The translations under genes were made by a program, and so were the position numbers. From positions 5,900-69,899 of the forward strand of contig JBEBHP010000020.1 in NCBI GenBank assembly GCA_040080835.1: a DNA stretch of 64,000 bases. The letters are read 5' to 3'. Below the pieces are notes generated by a model that had not been told where the DNA came from, searched no databases, and worked only from the letters and a program-made list of their open reading frames with translations. This stretch comes from Micropepsaceae bacterium (GTDB lineage Bacteria > Pseudomonadota > Alphaproteobacteria > Micropepsales > Micropepsaceae). Below are positions 19,880-33,994 of the stretch, in pieces. Within the stretch, counting starts at the first letter, position 1. The number at the start of each line of letters is the position of its first letter.

Positions 19880-20830
19880 CTAGTTTTTGACCCTTGGCTT
19901 TGCCTTCGCCGCTTTCGCCGCAGCCTTCGTGTCTTCGCTGGCCATGTAGTCGATCAGGGCGGTTGCTTCCTTCTCGCCTAGGCCAAAATTGGGCATCGGC
20001 ATGTCCTTGTACTTGGCCCTGAGCGCGGTTGCGACCGGATCACCTTCTTCGATCATCTTGTCGGGCTCTCTGATCCAGCGGCTCATCCAGTCATGCGGGC
20101 GCGATGACGCGACCCCAAGAAGGTCCGGACCCAGCCGGTCGCCGCTGCCCATTGTGTGGCAGGATACGCAGCGCGTTCGGAAGAGATACTCGCCCCGTGA
20201 CTGCGGCGGCAGTTGCCTTGCCACGGAGTAGTCCTGCTTCGTCCCCGCAATCGAGGTGGCATAGTTCGTCATGCGGTCAGTCAGCAGGTTCGCAAGCACA
20301 ACAGGGTCGTCATAGACCGAGCGCTTGATCCACTGGCCGGTGGTCTCGTTGGCCACCATCACGCTGGTGTCATGGTCGCGTGGCTTGCCCGGCTCGAATA
20401 CGCGCATGGCGAGCTTCTGCTGGATCAGCTTGATGTCTTCCTTGGCGCCCGTCAGGAACAGCCATCCCGGCTTCAGGCCAAAGGTGTGCATGTAGGTCTT
20501 GAGGACCTCGGGCGTGTCATGGTCCGGATCAATGGTGATCGAGTACATGTGGAAGTCCCGACCCACCCTGTCGCCAAGCTGAGCCTGGACCTGCGACAGC
20601 TGCGCCGTGTCCGCCGGGCAGATGTCCTTGCAGTTCGTATAGATGAAGTTGATCGTGACGATCTTGCCCTTCAGCAGGTCGTCATAGAACCGGTACCTGT
20701 TGCCATCCTGGTCGGTCAGTTCGACATTGGGGAAGTAGTTCCCGTGCCACTCGGCCGCAAGCGTCCAGCCAGCTGAACACAGCATCAGCGCAAGGGCCGC
20801 AACCAGGCGAACAGGCAGCTTGTGGCGCAT
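19880..20830 (-). CDS. SCO1/SenC copper chaperone fused to mono-haem cytochrome c
   Basis: Signal peptide, then a thioredoxin-fold SCO motif (FIYTNCKDICP, a CxxxC) with YSITIDPDHDTP. The C-terminal class I cytochrome c domain has CVSCH and a GPDLLGV...MPMPNFGL context. Confidence 0.85.
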   Translation of the reverse strand: MRHKLPVRLVAALALMLCSAGWTLAAEWHGNYFPNVELTDQDGNRYRFYDDLLKGKIVTINFIYTNCKDICPADTAQLSQVQAQLGDRVGRDFHMYSITIDPDHDTPEVLKTYMHTFGLKPGWLFLTGAKEDIKLIQQKLAMRVFEPGKPRDHDTSVMVANETTGQWIKRSVYDDPVVLANLLTDRMTNYATSIAGTKQDYSVARQLPPQSRGEYLFRTRCVSCHTMGSGDRLGPDLLGVASSRPHDWMSRWIREPDKMIEEGDPVATALRAKYKDMPMPNFGLGEKEATALIDYMASEDTKAAAKAAKAKPRVKN

Positions 20831-20849
20831 TCAGGTCTTTCCCAAAAAG

Positions 20850-20877
20850 GTCATGGCCCGCGCGAGCGAGCCATGAC
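20850..20877 (-). other. stem-loop in the MCO-SCO spacer
   Basis: gtcatggc / gccatgac forms an 8-bp inverted repeat with a 12-nt loop inside the 69-nt intergenic spacer. Confidence 0.3.
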
Positions 20878-20899
20878 GGATGTTCAGATGCAAGCCCTA

Positions 20900-23173
20900 T
20901 CAGTTTGCCGTCGGCAGTCCAAATGAAGGCTCATAGAAGGTGCCTTCCCAGGTCTGTCGCGGAGTCGGGATCGCAAGCGTCTGGCCAGGGTTCACCGAGT
21001 CCCACCGCAGAAGCATGGCATGGTCTTCATGCTGCGTGTTGTGGCAGTGCTCCATGTAGGTACCTGCAAATTCCCGGATGCGGATCGCAAGATCGACCGT
21101 TGCCGTCGAGTCGGGTGATACACCGATGCGGTACACGTCCTTGCGGGCGAAGGTTTCCCAGATCGGCGGGGCGACACCGCCACGCTGCAGGATCCGGCCT
21201 TCTTCGAAATGGATGTGCACGGGATGGCTCCAGCTCTGGCCCAGGTTGATCAGGTGCCAGATCTCAAGCGAACCTTTCTTTGGCGCCGCAGAGTAACGGT
21301 GGGGGTCCATGCCAAAGCCCTGGCCGCCGTCCGTCTTGATGGTCCACGGCGCAGCGTCGGTCGCATTCGCGCGGCCAAACTCGAACGTGCGCTGGCGGGC
21401 TGTCGACAGTTCTGCTGGCGTCATGACCGGCAGCGGGATCATCTGCTTCAGTCCTGCAACATACTGGGCAGGGTCCATGCTGAGGTCACTGTAGGTGTAG
21501 CTTGTCGTGTCGACACGGAACTCCATGATGCGTCCAACAGCCGGATCACCTGCGTAGGCGCCGCTGATGATGTCGGCCAGCGGAATTTCCCTGTTCGGAC
21601 CCATGCCGTTCACATGCTCAAGCAAGTTCACCATGTAGAGCTTGGTGCCGTTGGCAAGGTTCTTGAAGTCGATGACGATGTCGTAGCGCTCTGCAATCCC
21701 TTGCGTCGGCAGGTCCTGGCTCTGCGCGTTCGGGAACGGAACCGTGTGCTGCATCAGGTTGCCGTCGTTGGCCACCATGTAGTACGGCACGCGCACGCCT
21801 GCAGCCGTCACGATCGCCAGCTTGAAATAGCGCGAGACCGAGCCGTTCAGGATGCGGAATCGGTAACGTCGAGGACGAACCTTCAGGAATGGCTTGTAGG
21901 TCCAGTTCACGAGGACCCGGTCACCCAGGAAGCCATCCGTGTTCAGCGGATTGAATGTCAGCTGACCATTGGCGTCCCAGGCCTTGTCGGCGACGAGCAG
22001 GTTGACGTCGTAGTCGCGGTTGCCCCAGTCAAGTGCCGTGCCGCTTGGCAGACACATGTTCGGGTTGGCGGCGTTGGTGTAGTTGCACTTCAACCCCTCG
22101 CGACCGCGGTCGATAGATGAGTAGTAGTTCATCATCGCGGCGCTGCCCTTGTAGACATTCTGCGCCGTGAAATCGAGCATGTGGTCATGGAACCAGTGCG
22201 TGCTCATGGTTTCTTTCCAGTCACCACGCAGACGCTTGATGCCGCCGGCACCGTCCGGCATTCCGGCCCAGTCGGTGGTTGCTGTCGTGTTGATGTTGTC
22301 ATAACCCGCGATGATCATCGGCCAGCGATAGTCGTAATACTGGCCAGGAAAGAAGTAGGCGGCGGTATAGCCGTCGCTCTCTGCCGGGTTGTGACCATTG
22401 TGTTCGTGTGTCGACAGCGTGTGGAAGCCGAATCCGTTCGTCGCCGACGCATCAATCGGCAGCATGTTGTAGTGACGGAACAGGACGGGCTCGCCATAGC
22501 GCGCCATCAGCAGCTTCGGTGGCATGGTGCCGTCAAAGGTCCAGACGGAGTTAGCCTGCTGTGCAGGGAAGTTTGGATGGAACCTGACAGCGGTATTGGT
22601 GTTGGTTCCACCGTGATTGTAAAGTCCGCCTGGCTTGAATTCACCGACGGCATAGTGGTGTCGCTGCAGTGAATCTCTCAGTCCAAGGTTGGTGCGCGCG
22701 CCCGCTGAAGCCGACTGGAAGTAGACCTTGGGTGGAAATTCCGTCAGCCGCTGGTGGGCAAAATACTCGCCGCTCGGGCGCCCTTCAGCTGCGCTCTTGG
22801 CAAGCGCCTGGCCAATGCAGGTACCAATCGTTGCGGCCCACGGGTTGGGCTTGGTGGTGTTCGCCAGCCTGGTCATCCCCGGGCTCAGCGCCTGCTTCAG
22901 GAACGTGTCGATCGACGCAGACGCAGGTCCAAGCGTGCAGCTCTGCGGTGCTGGTACCGGCGTACACGTCGCGCAGGTCGTGCCGATATACGGCTTCGTG
23001 CCGAATTCCTCGAACAGCATCATTTCCTGTTCGAATTCACCCGCGTTGAACAGCGGGCTTGCTGGCAAGCCTGTCGGAATGCCTTGCGCGAGCGCCGAGC
23101 CCACGCCGAATGAAGAAGCGCCGCTCGCCAGCAGAATGGCACCCAGCGTCTTCGAGAATTTGTTCCTGACCAT
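20900..23173 (-). CDS. multicopper oxidase (CotA/bilirubin-oxidase-like, 3-domain with long N-terminal extension)
   Basis: All four copper motifs are present: HTLSTHEHNGH, HWFHDHM (22178..22198), HPVHIHFEEG and HCHNTQHEDHAML. There is a Sec-type signal. The start is placed at the ATG at 23173, preceded by AAGGGA; the ORF track begins at a TTG at 23188. Confidence 0.9.
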   Translation of the reverse strand: MVRNKFSKTLGAILLASGASSFGVGSALAQGIPTGLPASPLFNAGEFEQEMMLFEEFGTKPYIGTTCATCTPVPAPQSCTLGPASASIDTFLKQALSPGMTRLANTTKPNPWAATIGTCIGQALAKSAAEGRPSGEYFAHQRLTEFPPKVYFQSASAGARTNLGLRDSLQRHHYAVGEFKPGGLYNHGGTNTNTAVRFHPNFPAQQANSVWTFDGTMPPKLLMARYGEPVLFRHYNMLPIDASATNGFGFHTLSTHEHNGHNPAESDGYTAAYFFPGQYYDYRWPMIIAGYDNINTTATTDWAGMPDGAGGIKRLRGDWKETMSTHWFHDHMLDFTAQNVYKGSAAMMNYYSSIDRGREGLKCNYTNAANPNMCLPSGTALDWGNRDYDVNLLVADKAWDANGQLTFNPLNTDGFLGDRVLVNWTYKPFLKVRPRRYRFRILNGSVSRYFKLAIVTAAGVRVPYYMVANDGNLMQHTVPFPNAQSQDLPTQGIAERYDIVIDFKNLANGTKLYMVNLLEHVNGMGPNREIPLADIISGAYAGDPAVGRIMEFRVDTTSYTYSDLSMDPAQYVAGLKQMIPLPVMTPAELSTARQRTFEFGRANATDAAPWTIKTDGGQGFGMDPHRYSAAPKKGSLEIWHLINLGQSWSHPVHIHFEEGRILQRGGVAPPIWETFARKDVYRIGVSPDSTATVDLAIRIREFAGTYMEHCHNTQHEDHAMLLRWDSVNPGQTLAIPTPRQTWEGTFYEPSFGLPTAN

Positions 23174-23238
23174 GTGACGTCCCTTCAATTTTCTAAGGCA
23201 GATGAAGCATCTTCAGTACTGCCTGATGTCCCCGTTTT

Positions 23239-23285: not shown

Positions 23286-26200
23286 TCAAAGATGGAAGTC
23301 TGTGCTGACCAGGGTCGGCTCAGCCGGTTGCACATAGCCGCGCAACAGGATTTCAAAGTCAGCAGACAGGTTGTCGTTCAGGTTGCCCTGGATCAGTGTC
23401 GAGTCGAGCGAACCATTGCCGTCCGAGTCAAACAGCTGCCACCTGATCTGGCCGGCTGCCAGTGTGGCGCCCACCGTCGGATCGCTGAACGCCGCACTGC
23501 CGATGAAGTCGAAAGCCTGGTTGCCCGAAACCGTGGTGTTCGCATCGATGCTCGTGAGGTCGATGATGTCACCCTCGGCATGGTGGAAGTCCGTGATGAT
23601 CGACCGCCCGCCCCCGGTGCCGACGCCACCGCTCGACAGATACTGGAAGATATCGGCGTCGATCCCACCCGTCATCGTTTCAACACTGTTGCCAGCGATG
23701 AACGTGTCAATGCCGCCACCGCCGACAAACGTCACCGCGTTGGCGCCTCCCGCGGTACGACCCGTGAAGGTGTCGTTGCCCGAACCGCCGATGAAGGTTT
23801 CGATTGTCGACTGCTGCAAAAAGGCTGAAAGAACGTCGGTACCGATGTCCGTTCCGGTCGCGACCGCAAAGAACAGGTTTCCAATCACGTTGTTCAATTG
23901 CACCGTAACCGCATTCGTCGCAGCACTCATGTCAAGTGTGTCCGCACCTGCGCCACCATTGTAGGTATCGTTGCCGTCTCCTACGAACGCGATGAAGGTA
24001 TCGTTGCCATCGTCACCCGCAAGCGTGTTGTTGCCGGTATTTCCGGTGAGTACGTTTGCCAGGTTGTTGCCGGTGCCGTTGATGTTGCCTGTTCCCATCA
24101 GCGTCAGGTTTTCGACGTTGTTTCCAATCGTATAGGTGACGAACGATTGGACTGTGTCGGTGCCTGAACCCGCACCAGCGGCTTCGGTAATCGTGGTCAG
24201 GCCCGTCCCGCCGGTGTTGTGGCGCACGATGTAGGTGTCGTTGCCGAGACCGCCGATGAGCGTGTCCGTACCAGCCGTACCGCCATCCAGCGTGTCATTG
24301 CCGCCATTGCCGCGCAGCGTGTTGTTTGAGGAACTTCCGACAATGATATTGTCGTCGACACTGCCAGTGACATTCTCGATGCGGAACAGCAGGTCAGCGC
24401 CTGTAAGCGCACTCGTCGCCGTCCCACCCTGCGTGAGGTCGTTGGTGTTCGTCAGGTCGACATTCGTGTTACCGGCCGTGGACGCCATGTTGTAGGTGTC
24501 GGTACCCGTGCCGCCATCGTAGGTATCGTTGCCGTCACCAGTGCTTGCAAAGAACGTGTCGTTGCCAGCGCCACCCAGGACAAAGTCATCGCCCAGACCA
24601 GCGGTAATGCTGTCGTTGCCACCATTGCCGAAGATAAGGTCGATAGCAGCAGTGCCGGTGATGTTGTTGCCGCTTGCGGCATCGATGATGTAGTGCACCG
24701 CCGACCCATTCACGGTGTTCGTGTCGCCGTTGCCATCTGTATATGTAGACGTCACGCGGACAAGCCTTCCCGCCGCGCCGGTCGTGCCCGCCGGATTGAA
24801 GAACCGGGTGTCGGCACTGATCTGCGGCGCCGGAACCGGCAGCCAGGTCAAGCCATTGTCAGTTGACGTTTCCCAGACCAGCGTCGTCAGCTCATCAAGA
24901 ATGCCGCCGTCCGGGTCCTGCAGAGTGGAAAGTTGCTGCATCTGTGGAGCATTTGCTCCCACGACGCCTGTAACCGATACGTCTCCGATCAGGATCTCGT
25001 CCGTCACCGCAGGCGACAGGTGTCCTGGCGCGCCATCGTTGATGTTGCCCTGACCGTCCTCGTAGGTGATCGCCACCGAGATCGTATGCCCGATGTCGGT
25101 TTGCTGAACGATGTAGTCAGCGCCAATTGCTCCAGAAATCTCCACGCCGTCCCTGAGCCACTGAAACTGCTCGGAACCACTGGTGATGTCACCATCTGGA
25201 TCAAAGCCCAGGAACGCAGACAGTGAACCACCATTTGCAGCAGTTCCAGTCAGGAACGCAGGCGCCGTCCCGTCATCGACAGGCGCGACCGTGATGTTGA
25301 CCGTCTTTTCAGCACTCTTCAGCAAGCCGTCAAAGGCATAGTACTTGAAGCTGGCTGTACCCGCGAAGTCCTGCGTTGGCAGGAACGTGAACGTGCCGTT
25401 GTTGTTGAGAGTGACGGATCCATTTACCGCAGAACCAGGCACCAGCTTGTAGGCCAACGGATCGTTCGTCGGGTCCTGAGCCGCCAGGACGACACCGTCG
25501 AACAGCGTGTCTTCCAATGCGCCTGTGAGATCCACCGGATCCGCGCTCAGGAAGAATGGTGCACCACCATTGCTTATGACGTTGATGATGAAAGTGTCCG
25601 TCACACCCAGTTCTGTGCCAGGCGACCCGGGCGTGCCGACATCCGTTGCGGTGACAGTGATGCTGATCGGTCCAGTGACATTCACCGTGCCGGTGATGTT
25701 CGCACCCGAGACGCCGCCCAATCCATCTGGAACCAGGGTGAACGTCAGTCCGTTTGCACCAGCCGTACCATCCAGCACATGACCATTCGACGCCAGTTTG
25801 GCCGTATAAATCAGGTTTGTGGACGCGGTCTCGTTGTCCCCGAAAGTGCTTGTGATTGGCAGGAACAGGTTGATCGGAACACCAGTGCGGGCGCCCGTAT
25901 CCGGCAAGCCCGCAGGATTTTGCTGCTGCACCACAAACGGTGCGGTATTGACAGCCAGGTTTGGAAGCAGCAGTGCGGTCGGTGCCGAATTCACCGTTTC
26001 GTGGAACCCTTTGCCGTCCACAAAAGTCTCAACGACACGCAGCGCGTTTCCAAGCACCGCGTTCGTTGGGTTGAACGTCAGGCTGTCCGTGTTGGGGATG
26101 TTGACCCACTGCAAGCCACCGCCTGCGGTGACCATCTGCTGCTGCCACTGGAAATGCACCGATCCAGGTGCGATACCGTCCGAGTCAGTAACCGTCGACA

Positions 26201-29200
26201 CCGCCACTAGCGGAGTCCCGACAAAGGCATTGACCGGCGTCGCAGGGTTGCCATCATCATCGGTGATGATGAGAGAGCCACCAGGCAACGCGTTGTTTAC
26301 CGGTCCGTCTCCGATGTTGATGGTCACGTCCGCGAACTGAAGGCGCTCGATGTTGCGAACCTTGTCCACGCCGTCAGAGATCAGCACGCCGCCTCCGATG
26401 CCGACCGTCGCATTGTGCGTGATCGTGTAGAAGCCTTCTGCGTCCGGCGCGAAGCTGATCGAGTAATTCGAGAACACGTCACGATAGACAGCGGTATCGA
26501 TGTCACCGTCCGTGATGTCCCAACGGATTTCGCGGATGATGTCGGCACCAGCCACGCCGTGCTGAACCAGGTCAACGTGCAGCCACGCATCACCATCGAT
26601 GATGTCGTTGCCACCGCGGCCTGTGATCATGTCACTGCCATCGCCACCAAGAAGAATGTTGCCGTTGTTGAAACCGAGCGGATTCGTTACAGCGGCGATT
26701 GGCGTATCCGGCGCGAAGTTCGCCGCTACACCGCCTGCGAAGAATGTGTTGAGGTTGAAGATCAGGTCAACGTTTGTCAGCTCGTTCATGACACCGGCGG
26801 CACCGCCCCGGTCCTCTGTCCCCTGCATGAAGTCGTCAAACTTCGTGCCGCTGGCAGCTTCAGTTTCGATAAAGAAGTCACGCACCGCGTCACCGGCCAG
26901 CTGTTGCTGGTTCGGAATGAACTCGCGACGCTCCATGTCCAGGCTGACGCCGTACTGTTCTTTTTCGAAGTCGGCCCAGTCAAAGCCCAGCAGTCCGTTA
27001 AACTTGTCGAAGCCGCCTTCGCCCAGCATGATGTCGTCGCCGCTGAAGCCGACCATCTTGTCGCCAAAGGTGCCACCGTCGAGGACGTCGTTGCCCGCGA
27101 AAAGAGGCACTTGACCCGTTGGTGCGCCAGTGTCGCCGACCAGTCCGTCGCCGCCTGCACCACCTTCAAGCCAGTCGTCACCTTCGTTGCCGATCAGTGC
27201 GTCGTCGCTGTCACCACCGATGAGAATGTCGTTGCCGGCACCGCCCTGGGCTTCGTCTCCCAATGTCGCATTGCCGGTTTCAACGTAGTCGTTGCCGGCT
27301 CCGGCAAAGATCAGGTCGTCGCCCTGGCCACCATTGATCCAGTCGTCGCCCTCTTCGCCGTGAATGACGTCGTCGCCGGCGTTGTCGACGATCGTGTCGT
27401 TGCCGGTACCGCCATAGAGGAAATCGTTGCCGTTTCCACCGTCAATCCAGTCATTGCCCGCATCACCCCAGACGGTGTCGTCGTCTGCATGTCCCGCAAG
27501 CAGCCGGTCGTCACCCGCAGTGCCGCCAAGCACCATCGTGTTGCCGAAGAAGTTGTCATCGCCAATGAAGTGGACTGTTCCATCAGGCAACACTTCAACC
27601 AACAGCGCACCTGAAACCGGATTGCGAAGCCAGGTCGAAGAATCCGTTGCGATTCGGTGTCCGTTGATGTCGAGAAGGAAGTCGCCGTTGATGTCCTTCT
27701 GGAAGTACGACCCGGCTTCAATCGTATATTCCGGCGTCAGGAAGATGCTCGCTGGAATGTGTCGCGCGCCCGTATTCGCGATGATCATGTCCGCGAATGA
27801 GTTGTTTTCGATCTGGAATCCGAAGTCCATGCCTTCGATGCGCGGCAGGTAATAGAGCCGGTCGGCATCCTGGAGCGCTTCCAGTTGGGTTTCGAAGATG
27901 AAGTTGAAAGTTGAGCCAAGCAGGCCACCAAACAGGTTCTGCTTTTCGGCCAGACCACCGATCCACAAATCGATCGTATCCAGGCCCGTGACCGAACCCG
28001 TCGCCCACATCGCAGCGTGCGTCACGCCGTCGTCGGCAGTGCCCGGCAAGAGATCCGCACCAACGTCAATGTTCATCAGAGCGTTGTTGATGTGCGACCC
28101 GCCAGCCCACGTGTCGTCGGCCGTATTCAGCTTCGCATCACCGCCGACAACGCGGGTGTTGTTCGCCCAGTCGCCAAGGCTGTGCATGAAGTTGTAGGCA
28201 TCCTGGTGCTGCGCATCACCCGACGCACTGGCAGGGTCTGATCCCATCGTGATCAGATCCAAGGCTGCAGCGCGTTTTGCCAACATGGTCGATGCTGACG
28301 TGATCGACGAATGCGAGCCATAGGCCGCAATGAAGTTGATCAGTGAACCTTCATGCTTGAGGAATTGGCCAAACTCGAGCCAATTCGCATAGGGTTTCAG
28401 CGTTGCATCGTTCGTCGCGTCGTAGATCTGGGCGCGCACGAGGTTCAATGGCGCAACGCCGGTATCGCGGCCACGTGCGATGTTCAACGCGGCAAGGTCG
28501 AGCGGCAGACCCAAAAGGTTGTTTCTCAAGGCGCCGGTGACGAACTCGTCGATTTCGCTACCGATCTGGTGCGTCGCGCCCTGGATGATTTGCTGAGTAC
28601 CATCCGTGCCAAGACTGGCGAACAGCAGCGGGTTGGTAAAGGCCTGGATCAATCCCACATCTGTCAGAACGGGTTGACCATCGGGCCCGATTACCATCGT
28701 ACCGTCTGAGTTCGTTTCGAATATCGGAACGTTTTCGTCGAGCATCGAATGGCCAAAACGGTATACCGCATTGGCAAACTCGGACGTGATCGCCGGATCG
28801 AGGTGAATGTCGTTGTTGCCGAACAGGTGGATGGTTGGCGCTACCTTGCGGGCGAATTCTTCGAACACGAGATGCTGGTATTGCGTTTCGGTACCGAATT
28901 TCGCCGCCTGGAAGATGCGTTCGCCATTCCATTCGCCGGCCTGGATGCCATCCGCAAGGTTGGTGCCGGCCAAGACCCATTCGGAAGCAAAAGCGCTATC
29001 GCCGTTTGCAAGCTCTGCGCGAACCATGTCCTTGATCTGGTTGACCAGGCGATTGTGTTCGCTGTGGAAGATCTCGTGGACGGTTATCAGCGCAATGTTT
29101 TCGTTTACGCGACCATCACCGGCGATGTAGTGCGCATCCAGAAGTTCGTTGTCGTAGGTGCCAGCGCCTGGCGTGTTGCCGGCCAGTGTATCGCCGTCCT

Positions 29201-30608
29201 GCGCCAGCAGCACATGAGTCTGATTGTCGAACGGCGAGGCCGTCGCTGCCATGTCGTTGATGAAGGCATGGTCCGTGAATTGAACCGTACCACCTGTGGC
29301 TGTCTGAATTTGCGCAATGGTCAGCGGAGCGCTGGGATCAAGCACAAACGCAACGATGTTTGCACCCACCTTCACAGAAATCTGAACGTGGCCGGTTGCT
29401 GCATCTGGCGTGAAGTTGCCATAGGCATCCGACAGGAGAACGGGAACGTTGCCGACGTACTTGTCTTCAAGTACCAGACCGAACTTCAGGGCGTTCGCCT
29501 TCACATCGCTCCACGTCGCCATGCCCGAGTTGTCATCGGCATTGCCGAGAACTCCATCCTTGCCGGCCGCATGCTGAAGCAGGTTGCCGGTCGTGTGCAG
29601 CTTACCGTCGATGCCTAGGATGTATTCGCGCAGGAACACCTGGTGCGAAGGATGCGAAGAGTAGGTCTGGTTCTGGTCGACGAAAGGCGAAGTGGTGTTG
29701 ATGTTCTCGTGAATATCGTCGGACGTTCCGATGATACCGTCAGCGCCCGCCGATACAGTCAGGTTGGTCGCGCGCGTCAGCGCCATGAACTGCAGATTTG
29801 GATTTGTAATTTCATCGCCGGTTCCGGCAATGCCGTCCGGACCCAGTGTGATCAGTGGGTCATCTGCTGCAAGCGGGATGAAGACTGTTCCCTGGCTGCC
29901 CTTGGTGATGAGATCCAGGCCGTGATCGAAGAACTGACCGAAGAACGTCATCCAGCTGTTGAACGGCGCCGAGAGGCCTGCGTCCGGTGTCACGTTTCCG
30001 ATGAACAGGTTGACTTTGTCGGCGGGCGAGAGGTCGTCAGAGTTTCCTGAAATGCCATCAGCGCCCCACAGGTCGTCGACATTGCCTGCGATTCCGTCAA
30101 GGCCCGCGCCCCATGCATCGTCGGCGGTACCAAAGACGCCATCTGCACCGGGTAGAATCAGGCCACTGGGGTTAGACGAGAAGTCGGTGTAGCCGTCGCC
30201 GAGCTGTGCGGCGAAATCCTGTGCGGCTTGAAGGGCTGCGGGGTTGTTTGCACTGATGTCCGAGATCAGATTTGAAATTGTGCGTGGGGCGCCATCAACA
30301 ACATTGACCCCCATGATTGCGCCCGGTGCGGTTGACGCATAGGTCATGAAATCGCCTGCAACACCGCGATGGGCGTCGAAGATGGTTTCGTCGACATTGA
30401 CCGTGCGGAAATACTCTTGCGTGTAGGTGGCGAAGGGCTGGTCGGCCGACCCAAATGTGCTTTGCCCGGGAACCGAGTTGTTGTTCGTTCCCGCAACCTC
30501 TCGCAGACCAAAAGCCAGATGCGGGCTGACCGGAGGTGTGTTGGTCTCAGCCATCTGGATCTGCGTCAGCAGGTACTGAAGGTCATTTTTTGTAAATGTA
30601 ACAGCCAT
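23286..30608 (-). CDS. giant secreted animal-type haem peroxidase with RTX Ca-binding repeats (MopA-like)
   Basis: The distal-His motif [10 protein letters not shown] maps to 29913..29942. [22 protein letters not shown] is also present. The proximal-His motif RFGHSML maps to 28740..28760. [15 protein letters not shown] and DLWIGGLAE complete the peroxidase signatures. Two blocks of GGxGxD nonapeptide repeats follow, then three ~60-aa W-x-W beta-domain repeats and an uncleaved C-terminal T1SS-type tail (..[11 protein letters not shown]...STDFHL). The ATG at 30608 is preferred over the TTG at 30614. Confidence 0.95.
   Translation of the reverse strand: [2440 protein letters not shown]
23580..24677 (-). 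repeat. RTX nonapeptide repeat block 2 (ORF-track aa ~1980-2345)
   Basis: [27 protein letters not shown]...[10 protein letters not shown]...AGDDGNDTF...[10 protein letters not shown]. Confidence 0.9.
27000..27536 (-). repeat. RTX nonapeptide repeat block 1 (ORF-track aa ~1027-1205)
   Basis: [47 protein letters not shown]..., consecutive GGxGxDxUx units. Confidence 0.9.
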
Positions 30609-30991
30609 GGTCAAACACCCCTAGAATTTCCGGGCTTTCGCGCCTTTGGTTACAGCTCTGCAACCTTTGAGCCCAAAGCGCGCACCCGATTTGTTGAATC
30701 TCGACGGCACAATTCCCGCACCGCGCAAACTCAATCTGCAACCTGACGGGAAGCTGACTTGTTAGTGCGACGGCCTGTCGCACTTCGGGCTTGGAATAAA
30801 CTGGAAGTGCCATTTTTTTGGCTGGAAAATAGGAAAACCATTGATGGTCTCGGTGCCAAAAAAGCCAGAAAAAATCAGGGTTTTTTGAGGACTGTTAGAG
30901 GGTGGGAAATGGGTGCCAATTGCGAATGTCTCATATGTGCAGCACGGCTTCGTCGAATAGGTATTAATACTAATTAGTAGGGATTAATTCC
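30609..30991. promoter_or_regulatory. AT-rich divergent control region (peroxidase operon <> atypical response regulator)
   Basis: 383 nt, visibly lower in GC. It contains homopolymer runs (T7 at 30813, A6 at 30858, A6 at 30869, T6 at 30881). There is a 9-bp inverted repeat, ttttttggc (30814-22) / gccaaaaaa (30855-63). Three AT palindromes (attaat, taatta, attaat) lie at 30963-30988, directly before the GTG start. Confidence 0.5.
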
Positions 30992-32101: not shown

Positions 32102-33994
32102 TCAGGCGCCGCCGTCGACCGGCTTGCGTGCTGCTTCATAGGTCTCGGAGGCCTGCAGCCATGCTGTCTCCGCAACTTCAATCTGCTTCTGCAAATCCGC
32201 GCGCTGCTTTGTCAGCGAAGTCACCTGACCAGGCTCCTTCTCGTAGAGATCGGGCGCATTGAGCGCAGTCTCCATCTTCTGGAGGTCTGCCTGGAGCCTG
32301 GCGATCCGCTTTTCCGCTTCATCAGCGGCCTTCTTCAGCGGAGCAATCTGCGCGCGCCTGTCGGCTGCAGCCTTGCGTTCCTCCGCCTTGGTGAGCTTCG
32401 GCGCAGACGAAGCAGACTTGCTGCTGGCTGGCTTTCGTTCATCGAGCAGGACGCGTCGGTAGTCATCCATGTCCCCGTCAAAGGGTGTGACGCATCCATT
32501 GGCCACCAGCCACAGGCGATCAGCGCAGGTTTCCACCAGATGCGGATCGTGACTGATCAGAAGCACGGCGCCCGGATAGTCGTTAAGCGCCAAAACCAAT
32601 CCTTCTCGGCTGTCGATATCGAGATGGTTCGTCGGTTCGTCAAGAATAAGCAGATGCGGCGCATCAAGCGATGCGATCATGATGAGGAGCCGTGCGCGTT
32701 CGCCGCCTGAAAGGTTTCCAATGATGGTGTCGGCTTTGGATTCCGGAAACCCGGCAGTCCCCAATCGCGTGCGCGCTTCTTGCTCCCGGATATGGGGCAA
32801 CAGGTTCATGAGATGGCGCACGGGCGTGATGTTCGCAGACATTTCGTCAAGTTGGTGCTGGGCGAAGTAGCCGATCCTGAGACGTCGCGCCCTGGTCACG
32901 GTGCCTTCCATCGGTTTCAGCCGGCTGGAGATCAGCTTGGCGAATGTGGATTTGCCATTTCCGTTTGCACCCAGCAGGGCGATGCGGTCATCCGGATCGA
33001 TGCGAAGTTCCATGCCCGACAGAATCGCCCGGCCGTCGTAACCGGCACTCACGCGATCGAGGGCAAGAAGTGGCGGCGACAATTCCTCTGGTTCACCCAG
33101 CCGAAAAGGGGCCACCCGCTCGTTGGAGATACCGGCAATCGGCTGCAGCTTCGCAATTGCCTTCAGGCGGCTTTGCGCCTGACGAGCCTTGGAGGCCTTG
33201 TAGCGAAAGCGGTCGACAAAGGCCTGCATGTGCTTGCGCTGCACATCCTGTTTCGTGCGTTGTGCTTCAGCAACCGCCATACGCTCGCTGCGCGTTCTTT
33301 CGAAGGTGTCATAGTTGCCCGTGTAGAACGTGAGCTTCTTGTCTTCCAGGTGCAGGATTGAATCGACGGCGGTATTCAGCAAATCGCGATCATGACTGAT
33401 GAGAAGCATGGTTCCCTGAAAGCGCTTGAGGTATTGCTCAAGCCAGATCGAACCTTCAAGATCAAGATAGTTTGTCGGCTCGTCGAGGAGCAGCAGGTCC
33501 GGATTGGAAAACAGCACCGCCGCCAGCGCAACCCGCATGCGCCAGCCACCGGAGAACTCCGAGCATGGACGCAGTTGCGCCGCCGCATCAAAGCCAAGGC
33601 CCGCCAGGATTTCGGCCGCCCGCGCGGGTGCCCGGTGGGCGCCGATGTCGGAAAGCCGTGTTTCAATTTCGGCAATGCGCAAAGGGTCGGTTGCCGATTG
33701 CGATTCCGCGAGCAGGTTCGCCCGCTCGACATCGGCCTCAAGCACGGTGTCGATGAGCGAGGTGGGGCCGCCGGACACTTCCTGCGCCACGCCACCAATG
33801 CGCCAGTCTCGCGCGATGGTAATTTCACCACCATCAGTTTCGACTTCCTGGCGGATCAGCCGGAAGAGCGTCGTTTTGCCTGTTCCATTGCGTCCGACCA
33901 GGCCGACCTTGTGGCCGCCAGGAATATTTGCCGAGGCCTGCTCAAAAAGCGGCCGACCTTCGATCCGATAGGTAAGGTTGTTGATACGTAACAT
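32102..33994 (-). CDS. ABC-F family ATPase (Uup/YheS-like translation-associated factor)
   Basis: 630 aa with two Walker A sites (GRNGTGKTT, GANGNGKST), two LSGG signatures, no TM domain and a C-terminal coiled-coil tail. Confidence 0.9.
   Translation of the reverse strand: MLRINNLTYRIEGRPLFEQASANIPGGHKVGLVGRNGTGKTTLFRLIRQEVETDGGEITIARDWRIGGVAQEVSGGPTSLIDTVLEADVERANLLAESQSATDPLRIAEIETRLSDIGAHRAPARAAEILAGLGFDAAAQLRPCSEFSGGWRMRVALAAVLFSNPDLLLLDEPTNYLDLEGSIWLEQYLKRFQGTMLLISHDRDLLNTAVDSILHLEDKKLTFYTGNYDTFERTRSERMAVAEAQRTKQDVQRKHMQAFVDRFRYKASKARQAQSRLKAIAKLQPIAGISNERVAPFRLGEPEELSPPLLALDRVSAGYDGRAILSGMELRIDPDDRIALLGANGNGKSTFAKLISSRLKPMEGTVTRARRLRIGYFAQHQLDEMSANITPVRHLMNLLPHIREQEARTRLGTAGFPESKADTIIGNLSGGERARLLIMIASLDAPHLLILDEPTNHLDIDSREGLVLALNDYPGAVLLISHDPHLVETCADRLWLVANGCVTPFDGDMDDYRRVLLDERKPASSKSASSAPKLTKAEERKAAADRRAQIAPLKKAADEAEKRIARLQADLQKMETALNAPDLYEKEPGQVTSLTKQRADLQKQIEVAETAWLQASETYEAARKPVDGGA

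What the first reader, a model, noticed from the sequence alone, without database searches (positions are those of the whole stretch)
23286..30608. Unusual architecture of the giant peroxidase: Asp-rich DGxxGxxDD inserts, a triplicated W-x-W beta domain, two RTX blocks, and a T1SS-type tail with no T1SS genes nearby
Seen in the sequence (ORF-track numbering):
- The catalytic domain spans aa ~200-930 and carries FGQFFDH, HSEHNRL, RFGHSML and RGRDTG.
- It is interrupted repeatedly by short acidic motifs of the form (A/G)DG(I/V)xG(T/N)(A/S)DD, at aa 156-194 (three in a row), 258-267, 290-300, 352-361, 829-834 and 857-862.
- RTX block 1 covers aa 1027-1205, with a short extra block at aa 1316-1345.
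- Three ~60-aa repeats share the pattern (H/Q)FQW...G..W..I......(F/Y).P......G..(L/I)RV...Y.DG.G. They lie at aa 1487-1549, 1816-1870 and 1911-1976 (nt 25968-26156, 25005-25169, 24687-24884).
- RTX block 2 covers aa 1980-2345.
- The protein ends in an uncleaved C-terminal tail.

Inference: this looks like a Ca-stabilised, surface-retained or secreted oxidase with adhesin-like spacer domains. Export would need a type I system (ABC, MFP, TolC), and none is encoded anywhere in this 64-kb window. The acidic inserts within a peroxidase fold are not something I can assign to a known family.
Basis: partly seen in the sequence, partly recalled or inferred. Interest (0 to 1): 0.6.

Follow-up and report, generated by a model that had tools for sequence, protein, structure and literature searches.

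The report
MopA-type secreted haem peroxidase, ordinary architecture

Summary
A 2440/2442-aa minus-strand ORF (23286..30608/30614) carries an animal-haem-peroxidase domain, six acidic inserts, two RTX blocks, three ~80-aa W-x-W repeats and an acidic, Cys-free C-terminal tail.

The architecture is not unusual.
1. The acidic inserts fit the published PERCAL calcium-binding motif G-x-D-G-x-x-[GN]-[TN]-x-D-D (PMC3396595). That motif was defined from such insertions in the Pseudomonas putida homologue. Three sites are positionally shared with Pseudomonas MopA/PehA.
2. The W-x-W repeats occur in the MopA homologues I fetched. They belong to a very large bacterial repeat family: 36,324 cluster representatives, with up to 58 tandem copies in one protein. 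Pfam labels the canonical copies IG_AIR9/SCAB-Ig (Ig-like), but the copies here fall below Pfam detection.
3. A complete PrtD-type T1SS (ABC + MFP on contig C49, TolC on C14) is in the genome. Its 68-72%-identical counterparts in five sister species lie directly beside MopA genes.

The protein is collinear with P. putida PehA/MopA, at 41% identity over ~1,550 residues.

Structure prediction of the N-terminal 1015 aa failed (pLDDT 59.6), so the geometry of the Ca sites is untested.

Verdict: a new member of a known kind, of low interest. The same scan separately noted the peroxidase-MCO-SCO cluster (e1-3951381).

The parts
23286..30608 (-). Gene for a single-domain MopA/PehA-type haem peroxidase ('long peroxicin'). 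2440 aa from the ATG at 30608; the ORF is open from the TTG at 30614.
   Evidence: Collinear with the 3619-aa P. putida protein.
27570..30614 (-). aa 1-1015: N-terminal extension plus an expanded animal-haem-peroxidase domain. Residues Q227, D230, H231, R502, E505, H622 and N711 are present.
   Evidence: Pfam PF03098 E 4.5e-51. Profile against PDB: cyanobacterial peroxidase 8s6c at 6.4e-46, also LPO and MPO. Residues are invariant in alignment A2. Their functional roles are assigned from my knowledge of myeloperoxidase numbering.
30033..30149 (-). Three tandem PERCAL motifs (aa 156-194): GADGVFGTADD, GLDGIAGNVDD, GADGISGNSDD.
   Evidence: The first site is shared with Pseudomonas, Luteimonas and other homologues; the second and third vary in presence.
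29811..29843 (-). PERCAL variant GPDGIAGTGDE (aa 258-268).
   Evidence: Present in some homologues only.
29715..29747 (-). PERCAL motif GADGIIGTSDD (aa 290-300). It is the most widely shared site: 17 of the 18 aligned homologues carry it or a near variant.
29532..29564 (-). PERCAL motif GKDGVLGNADD (aa 351-361).
   Evidence: Shared with Pseudomonas MopA; lost in three alphaproteobacterial homologues.
28020..28157 (-). Lineage-specific 46-aa insertion (aa 820-865) carrying two half-motifs (..NTADD.., ..PGTADD..).
   Evidence: In several congeners the matches break at residues 820-866.
26994..27536 (-). RTX block 1 (aa 1027-1207), about 12 nonapeptides.
26580..26669 (-). Short extra RTX element (aa 1316-1345).
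25944..26210 (-). W-x-W repeat 1 (aa 1469-1557), an A9/SCAB-Ig-like module. It ends the unit (aa ~5-1550) that is duplicated in two-domain MopA proteins.
25287..25541 (-). Bacterial Ig / cadherin-like domain (aa 1692-1776).
   Evidence: Pfam Big_9 1.8e-11 and Cadherin_5 4.3e-11.
24999..25205 (-). W-x-W repeat 2 (aa 1804-1872). The second Trp is replaced (..DGVEISGA..).
24669..24938 (-). W-x-W repeat 3 (aa 1893-1982).
   Evidence: AlphaFold2 model pLDDT 83.
23574..24668 (-). RTX block 2 (aa 1983-2347), about 14 nonapeptides, many of the GxGNDT type.
23289..23573 (-). C-terminal ~95 aa ending ..STDFHL: an uncleaved T1SS-type secretion region.
   Evidence: Sequence. Homologues end ..DFIL..DFFL or ..DFILAS. 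That this is the T1SS signal is inferred from the serralysin/lipase-type substrates.
20900..23188 (-). Context: multicopper oxidase (762 aa) with a signal peptide and four Cu motifs, 97 nt downstream on the same strand.
   Evidence: Synteny is conserved.
19880..20830 (-). Context: SCO1/SenC-cytochrome c fusion (316 aa).
   Evidence: Synteny is conserved.

Best explanation
The gene encodes a single-domain member of the MopA/PehA family, the 'long peroxicins' (Family 5 of the peroxidase-cyclooxygenase superfamily).

**Architecture.**
- A haem peroxidase core enlarged by loop insertions, several of which are PERCAL Ca2+-binding motifs.
- An RTX beta-roll.
- A spacer of five beta-modules: three A9/SCAB-Ig-like 'W-x-W' repeats, one cadherin/Big_9 domain and one unassigned T/G-rich stretch.
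- A second RTX block and an uncleaved C-terminal secretion signal.

**Likely mechanism (inferred).**
- The unfolded, Cys-free, very acidic chain is threaded C-terminus first through the PrtD-type ABC/MFP pair on contig C49 and a TolC.
- It folds outside the cell as Ca2+ fills the RTX and PERCAL sites.
- It then acts as an extracellular or loosely cell-associated haem oxidase.

**Likely role.** Given the conserved operon with a multicopper oxidase and a SCO1-cytochrome c copper chaperone, the most likely role is Mn(II) -> Mn(III) oxidation, as for characterised MopA.

**What is shown and what is inferred.**
- Shown: family membership, the identity of the motifs and repeats, and the presence and orthology of the T1SS.
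- Inferred: export, Ca-dependent folding and the substrate.
For: **Family.**
- Pfam An_peroxidase scores 4.5e-51 and HemolysinCabind 9.5e-47.
- Residues 7-1572 align at 40.5-41.4% identity to each of the two units of the 3619-aa P. putida protein. Residues 1717-2357 align at 31% to its C-terminal part.
- 568 tblastn-confirmed relatives were found among genome contigs.

**PERCAL.**
- Six matches were seen against 0.0004 expected.
- Sites are shared with Pseudomonas.
- The motif, its Ca2+ binding and its restriction to the peroxidase domain are published (PMC3396595). Reviews list PERCAL plus hemolysin-type repeats as the marks of long peroxicins/MopA (PMC4420034; PMC6247904).

**Repeats.**

**T1SS.**
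- The ABC matches TIGR01842 at 644 bits and the MFP matches TIGR01843 at 372 bits. Both are over cut-off and adjacent on C49.
- TolC is over cut-off on C14.
- The counterpart ABC/MFP (68-72% / 61-65% identity) lies directly beside two-domain MopA genes in the three congener regions examined (G004, G015, G017). By coordinates the ABC also lies beside them in G005 and G007.
- In G004 the T1SS flank keeps homologues of this genome's C49 neighbours.
- A 68%/62% pair lies directly upstream of a MopA gene in MAG locus L048. Copies at 44%/31% lie beside mopA in many Pseudomonas, where they are the pehBCD genes (PMC9518985).

**Export in relatives.** MopA is found in the culture supernatant of P. putida GB-1 (PMC13689576). 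PehA was immunodetected on the cell surface.

**Operon.** Peroxidase-MCO-SCO synteny holds in about 14 alphaproteobacterial loci and in congeners, where the unit is even duplicated.
Against: - No experiment bears on this protein. Secretion, haem loading and substrate are all unverified.
- The T1SS is unlinked: both genes sit well inside their contigs (C22 73 kb, C49 140 kb). Its pairing with this substrate therefore rests on orthology alone.
- The strict motif count found only one other RTX-rich ORF in the genome, a 595-aa protein on C2. It could be the T1SS's main client.
- The PDB profile alignment covers the core in separate blocks, and the AlphaFold2 model of aa 1-1015 is poor (pLDDT 59.6). 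The position of the PERCAL loops around the haem domain is therefore unknown.
- P. putida PehA is discussed as an oxidative-stress and rhizosphere-fitness peroxidase rather than a Mn oxidase. MopA's role in Mn oxidation in P. putida GB-1 shows only in a triple mutant.
Confidence: 0.82

Rival explanations
1. Same protein family and export route, but the physiological job is general extracellular peroxide/ROS defence or modification of organic substrates, as proposed for P. putida PehA, rather than Mn(II) oxidation.
For: PehA shows peroxidase activity and raises rhizosphere fitness, and its T1SS is induced by H2O2 (PMC9518985). All classical peroxidase catalytic residues are kept. There is no evidence that MopA enzymes use H2O2 for Mn oxidation.
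Against: The tight, widely conserved and even co-duplicated linkage to a multicopper oxidase and a SCO1 copper chaperone points to metal oxidation. In P. putida the Mn-oxidising MCOs lie with SCO1 genes.
Confidence: 0.3
2. A LapA-like, surface-anchored adhesin in which the Ig-like, cadherin-like and RTX modules are the functional part and the peroxidase is accessory. Retention would be controlled by a LapG/LapD-type system.
For: Ig-like and cadherin-like spacer modules are present. The W-x-W repeat family is typical of giant tandem-repeat proteins, and 20 of the 150 best hits carry RTX repeats. PehA was detected on the cell surface.
Against: There are only five spacer modules, against tens in true adhesins. 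The N-terminus is part of the conserved peroxidase region, not a retention module. No LapG-type protease (PF06035) was found in a genome scored 100% complete. About 40% of the chain is the enzyme.
Confidence: 0.07
3. The gene is a non-exported relic: it was stranded when the T1SS-linked two-domain paralogue was lost, and is no longer functional.
For: The T1SS is unlinked and the two-domain paralogue of sister species is absent. The gene's distribution within the genus is patchy: 10 of 18 other genomes searched have a match.
Against: The 2442-codon frame is intact. All 200-odd invariant family residues are kept. The tail and RTX blocks are intact, the operon partners are intact, and the T1SS genes have no stops.
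Confidence: 0.03

Closest known systems
PehA/PepA (PP_2561) of Pseudomonas putida KT2440 and MopA (PputGB1_3353) of P. putida GB-1
   Same: Peroxidase core with PERCAL inserts, then RTX, a W-x-W repeat, further repeats, RTX and a ..DFxL-type tail. Identity is 41% over ~1,550 residues to each unit. The T1SS ABC is 44% identical to the one in this genome.
   Different: The Pseudomonas proteins carry two peroxidase units (3,608-3,619 aa) and their T1SS lies next door. This protein has one unit, an unlinked T1SS, and an MCO + SCO1-cytochrome c directly downstream. It has six PERCAL matches in one domain, against five per domain in P. putida.
MopA of Erythrobacter sp. SD-21 (A5PER4, 2138 aa)
   Same: Single peroxidase domain with PERCAL motifs (three) plus a C-terminal hemolysin-type Ca-binding domain. 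It is an alphaproteobacterial enzyme with Ca-dependent Mn(II) -> Mn(III) oxidation (PMC6247904; PMC3396595 Table 3).
   Different: I could not compare the sequences directly, because no tool returned that sequence. Lengths differ by about 300 aa.
Cyanobacterial short peroxidase (PDB 8s6c, Cyanobacterium TDX16) and Dictyostelium DdPoxA (6erc)
   Same: These are the closest solved structures by sequence profile (6.4e-46 and 5e-31). They share the catalytic motifs.
   Different: They are about 520 aa and lack the PERCAL inserts, the ~150-residue beta-rich insertion (profile positions 302-453), the RTX blocks and the spacers.
Pfam IG_AIR9 (PF23197) / SCAB-Ig (PF16709) Ig-like repeats
   Same: Canonical bacterial copies of the W-x-W repeat family are recognised by these models. 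hhalign between my repeat alignment and canonical copies gives 99.9% probability, E 4.4e-32.
   Different: The three copies here get no Pfam hit even at E <= 10. The AlphaFold2 model has no significant PDB neighbour (best E 0.23).

Membership tests
MopA/PehA-type long peroxicin (peroxidase-cyclooxygenase superfamily, Family 5) | Animal-haem-peroxidase domain with distal Gln/Asp/His, distal Arg/Glu, and proximal His with its Asn partner | tested here: met
   PF03098 E 4.5e-51. FGQFFDH at 225, GRVNE at 501-505, RFGHSML at 619 and LNIARGRD at 710-717 are all invariant in alignment A2.
MopA/PehA-type long peroxicin (peroxidase-cyclooxygenase superfamily, Family 5) | PERCAL inserts G-x-D-G-x-x-[GN]-[TN]-x-D-D inside the peroxidase domain, none outside | tested here: met
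   Five strict matches plus one D-E variant, all at aa 156-361. Shuffles give 0.0004. Motif definition from PMC3396595.
MopA/PehA-type long peroxicin (peroxidase-cyclooxygenase superfamily, Family 5) | Hemolysin-type (RTX) Ca-binding repeats C-terminal to the catalytic domain | tested here: met
   PF00353 E 9.5e-47, seven stretches. Nonapeptide map.
MopA/PehA-type long peroxicin (peroxidase-cyclooxygenase superfamily, Family 5) | End-to-end collinearity with a characterised family member | tested here: met
   blastp against the 3619-aa P. putida protein (L089): residues 7-1572 match both units and 1717-2357 match the C-terminal part.
MopA/PehA-type long peroxicin (peroxidase-cyclooxygenase superfamily, Family 5) | Haem-dependent peroxidase and/or Ca-dependent Mn(II) oxidase activity | not testable with these tools
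   Needs enzymology. Only the operon context with MCO and SCO1 bears on it.
Type I secretion (RTX) substrate | RTX repeats, uncleaved C-terminal signal, no N-terminal signal peptide, acidic, Cys-free | tested here: met
   D+E 305 against K+R 76, 0 Cys, tail ..STDFHL. The N-terminus aligns to the conserved peroxidase N-region.
Type I secretion (RTX) substrate | Cognate ABC, MFP and TolC encoded in the genome | tested here: met
   C49:71682-74760 (ABC 644 bits, MFP 372 bits, both over cut-off) and C14 TolC at 341 bits. Counterparts lie beside MopA genes in congeners.
Type I secretion (RTX) substrate | Demonstrated export | not testable with these tools
IG_AIR9 / SCAB-Ig Ig-like repeat | Direct match to the Pfam models | tested here: not met
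   No hit for any of the three copies at E <= 10.
IG_AIR9 / SCAB-Ig Ig-like repeat | Profile-level homology to repeats that the Pfam models do recognise | tested here: met
   An HMM of 70 canonical copies finds the three copies here (7e-12, 1.7e-5, 1.4e-3). hhalign gives 99.9%. Coordinates overlap the Pfam hits.
IG_AIR9 / SCAB-Ig Ig-like repeat | Ig-like beta-sandwich fold | tested here: inconclusive
   AlphaFold2 pLDDT 83, but only four strands were called. The best Foldseek hits are Ig/PKD-like at E 0.23-1.4 and TM <= 0.43. The weak profile hits to PDB include a phage Ig-like protein and SCAB1 (E 0.17 and 1.4).
LapA-type surface-retained adhesin | LapG-type periplasmic protease (PF06035) in the genome | tested here: not met
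   No match in a genome scored 100% complete.

The most novel reading that the evidence does not exclude
In this alphaproteobacterial genus the unit [MopA peroxidase - multicopper oxidase - SCO1/cytochrome c] behaves as one co-inherited, co-duplicated module served by one dedicated T1SS. That would suggest an obligate two-enzyme extracellular relay: the haem enzyme makes Mn(III) and the MCO carries it on to Mn(IV) oxide. In that reading the Ig-like W-x-W and cadherin modules hold the peroxidase on the oxide or EPS matrix. The genome in hand would be a natural 'minimal' version: one peroxidase, and a T1SS left orphaned by loss of the two-domain paralogue.
Probability: 0.2. Interest if true: 0.45.

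Novelty: new member of a known kind. Interest (0 to 1): 0.18.

Why it matters
The result mainly closes a question: the 'unusual' features are the published hallmarks of MopA/PehA-type peroxidases. Three by-products have modest value.

1. The W-x-W module that ends each MopA unit is not mentioned in the MopA papers I read, which describe only peroxidase, PERCAL and RTX parts. It belongs to a very large bacterial repeat family that Pfam covers only through two models named for plant proteins.
2. The genus gives a clean comparative series for asking which parts of the Mn-oxidation kit are needed: T1SS + two-domain MopA + MCO/SCO + single-domain MopA + MCO/SCO, against this reduced genome.
3. The case shows that a missing adjacent T1SS is weak evidence about export.

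Tried and rejected
- **The search for homologous proteins** on aa 100-1000 timed out, so I obtained no source names for close relatives.
- **AlphaFold2 of aa 1-1015** with a 36-row alignment gave mean pLDDT 59.6 and pTM 0.53. The haem-core helices were among the worst parts. Foldseek then returned only peroxidase/COX structures, at TM 0.2-0.3.
- **Foldseek of the repeat model** gave no significant neighbour, and the profile-against-PDB search gave nothing significant.
- **Pfam and NCBIfam** have no model that hits the W-x-W copies here or PERCAL.
- **Self-blastp of aa 1201-2000** did not pair the three repeats. Only profiles show their kinship.
- **A second peroxidase, or remnants of one,** in this genome: none found.
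- **LapG-type retention system:** not found.
P. putida stood in for them.
- **Promoter and terminator scans** across the cluster were at chance level.
Full report
**What is there.** The minus strand between 23286 and 30614 is one open frame of 2442 codons from a TTG. The ATG two codons in (30608) is the likelier start. It lies about 9 nt downstream of a TAGGGG Shine-Dalgarno-like site, and homologues begin at the equivalent Met.

- Pfam finds an animal haem peroxidase domain (E 4.5e-51), RTX nonapeptide repeats (E 9.5e-47, seven stretches) and one bacterial Ig/cadherin-like domain at aa 1692-1776.
- The closest solved structures by sequence are a cyanobacterial peroxidase (8s6c), Dictyostelium DdPoxA, and lactoperoxidase and myeloperoxidase. 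RTX proteins match the C-terminal parts.
The residues I assign as distal Gln/Asp/His, distal Arg/Glu and proximal His/Asn are invariant across 36 aligned homologous domains. The role assignment rests on my knowledge of myeloperoxidase.

**The acidic inserts are PERCAL.** Six stretches match G-x-D-G-x-x-[GN]-[TN]-x-D-[DE], at aa 156, 171, 184, 258, 290 and 351. In 20,000 shuffles of aa 1-1015 the mean was 0.0004 matches and no shuffle exceeded one. None occurs in the D/G-rich C-terminal 1,400 residues.

[quoted passage not shown] A consensus peptide and the purified N-terminal domain bound Ca2+ (KD 33-79 uM and 12 uM). The motif was reported to lie inside the peroxidase domains, while hemolysin-type repeats lie outside (PMC3396595).
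- Later reviews list PERCAL plus hemolysin-type repeats as the marks of the 'long peroxicins', and of MopA in particular (PMC4420034; PMC6247904).
- In my alignment of 18 homologues, the site at aa 290-300 is kept as a motif or near variant in 17. The site at 351-361 is kept in most, and the first of the N-terminal trio in many. The other sites come and go as indels.
That insertion is seen only in this protein and its nearest relatives.
- Six matches in one domain is slightly more than the five per domain tabulated for P. putida. This is a quantitative detail only.

**The W-x-W repeats are a family-wide Ig-like module.**

- The three copies lie at aa 1469-1557, 1804-1872 and 1893-1982. Pairwise BLAST does not link them.
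- An HMM built from them finds about three to five copies in each full-length homologue listed, at matching positions in the alphaproteobacterial orthologues (the listing was cut after L069). The P. putida representative L089 has four.
- In two-domain proteins the duplicated unit is peroxidase + RTX1 + linker + first repeat, that is aa ~5-1550 of this protein.
- A profile of 72 copies, searched against 1.84 billion cluster representatives, hit 36,324 proteins at E <= 1e-3 (4,814 at <= 1e-30). One 6,116-aa protein carries 58 tandem copies.
- In five of those giants the copies coincide with Pfam IG_AIR9 (PF23197) and SCAB-Ig (PF16709) matches.
- Pfam itself reports nothing for the copies here, even at E <= 10.
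- An AlphaFold2 model of repeat 3 is fairly confident (pLDDT 83). Its PDB neighbours are Ig/PKD-like domains at non-significant scores.
- I therefore call the module 'A9/SCAB-Ig-like, probably a beta-sandwich'. Membership holds at profile level, and the fold is unconfirmed.
- In this genome only the peroxidase carries the module.

**RTX blocks and tail.** The chain has no cysteine, and D+E is 305 against K+R 76. It ends ..STDFHL, and homologues end ..DFIL..DFFL or ..DFILAS. I infer from the serralysin/lipase class of substrates that this is a type I signal.

**Where the T1SS is.** The window has none. The only ABC gene (32102..33994) is an ABC-F ATPase without a membrane domain.

- This genome (4.43 Mb, 51 contigs, scored 100% complete) has one PrtD-type ABC (644 bits, cut-off 510). 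A HlyD-type MFP follows it directly (372 bits, cut-off 209), at C49:71682-74760.
- A TolC above cut-off lies on C14, and two further ABC/MFP pairs lie on C3 and C11.
- Both the C49 genes and the peroxidase sit tens of kb from their contig ends, so the separation is real.
- In five species of the same genus, the best homologues of the C49 ABC (70-72% identical) lie directly beside two-domain MopA genes.
- The fetched regions of G015, G017 and G004 show the order MCO/SCO - ABC - MFP - two-domain MopA. In G004 there is a full array: T1SS - two-domain MopA - MCO - SCO - single-domain MopA - MCO - SCO. The G004 T1SS flank also carries homologues of this genome's C49 neighbours.
- The same linkage is seen in an alphaproteobacterial MAG (L048, 68%/62% identity). 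It is also seen in many Pseudomonas (44%/31%), where the genes are pehBCD flanking pehA (PMC9518985).
- This genome lacks the two-domain paralogue.
- The simplest reading is that the C49 system is the family's dedicated exporter, now serving the one remaining peroxidase. A 595-aa RTX protein on C2 is another possible client.
- No LapG-type protease was found, so a LapA-style regulated anchoring is not supported.

**Function.** The relatives give the range of possibilities.

- MopA oxidises Mn(II) to Mn(III), is found in culture supernatant, and needs Ca2+ in Erythrobacter.
- PehA is a surface-detected peroxidase that raises rhizosphere fitness.
- Here the gene is followed, after 97 nt, by a signal-peptide-bearing multicopper oxidase with all four Cu motifs. 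A SCO1/SenC-cytochrome c fusion comes next.
- This trio is conserved in about 14 alphaproteobacterial loci and is duplicated as a unit in a congener.
- That context, already noted by the scan as a separate finding, tips me toward Mn or metal oxidation over general peroxide defence. It is still inference.

**Comparison and verdict.** The protein is collinear with P. putida PehA/MopA at 41% identity. It passes every sequence-level membership test for the long peroxicin/MopA family. It differs in three ways: it has one catalytic unit (as in Erythrobacter MopA), an unlinked T1SS, and the MCO-SCO partners directly downstream. None of the features flagged as unusual lies outside the known family pattern. 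I rate it a new member of a known kind, of low interest.

**What remains open.**
- The geometry of the PERCAL sites, because the N-terminal model failed (pLDDT 59.6).
- The true fold of the W-x-W module.
- Actual export, and the substrate.

Noticed in passing
window 19880-23188 (-); loci L017-L033, L099-L102: The peroxidase is followed by an MCO and a SCO1-cytochrome c fusion. This trio is syntenic in about 14 alphaproteobacterial loci. In congener G004 it occurs twice in a row, next to a two-domain MopA and two T1SS ABC/MFP pairs.
   Followed up: partly
G000 C40:89787-92036 (-): A second multicopper oxidase, 70% identical to the window's MCO, lies on another contig with no SCO1 homologue detected beside it. 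It may be the partner left behind by a lost two-domain MopA.
   Followed up: no
G000 C49:70288-74760: The PrtD-type T1SS has no RTX substrate gene next to it. It is preceded by a 348-aa ORF ending ..KYSF, which could be an outer-membrane beta-barrel. In sister species a two-domain MopA gene follows the MFP at this position.
   Followed up: partly
G000 C2:278921-280708 (+): A 595-aa ORF with six RTX nonapeptides, ending ..QPDIII. It is the only other RTX-rich ORF found by the strict motif count, and a second candidate T1SS client.
   Followed up: no
window ~29130-29625 (-), aa ~330-495: A beta-rich insertion of about 150 residues lies inside the peroxidase core and has no counterpart in the 8s6c short peroxidase (profile positions 302-453). 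It is conserved in all MopA homologues aligned, and was the best-predicted part of an otherwise poor model (pLDDT 80-94).
   Followed up: partly
window 29919-29942 (-), aa 225-232: The residue after the distal His is Gly (FFDHGLD) in all 36 aligned MopA-type domains, whereas 8s6c has Asp (FLDHDLD). From my knowledge of myeloperoxidase, that Asp is a ligand of the classical distal Ca2+ site, so the canonical Ca site may be altered in this family.
   Followed up: no
window 20850-20877 (-): A 12-bp GC-rich hairpin followed by CTTTTTGG lies between the MCO stop and the SCO1-cytochrome c start. It looks like a terminator, but the number of such sites in the region is at chance level.
   Followed up: no
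The genome search relatives: Within the genus the peroxidase is patchy: 10 of 18 other genomes searched have a match. Several of them carry both a single-domain and a two-domain copy.
   Followed up: partly
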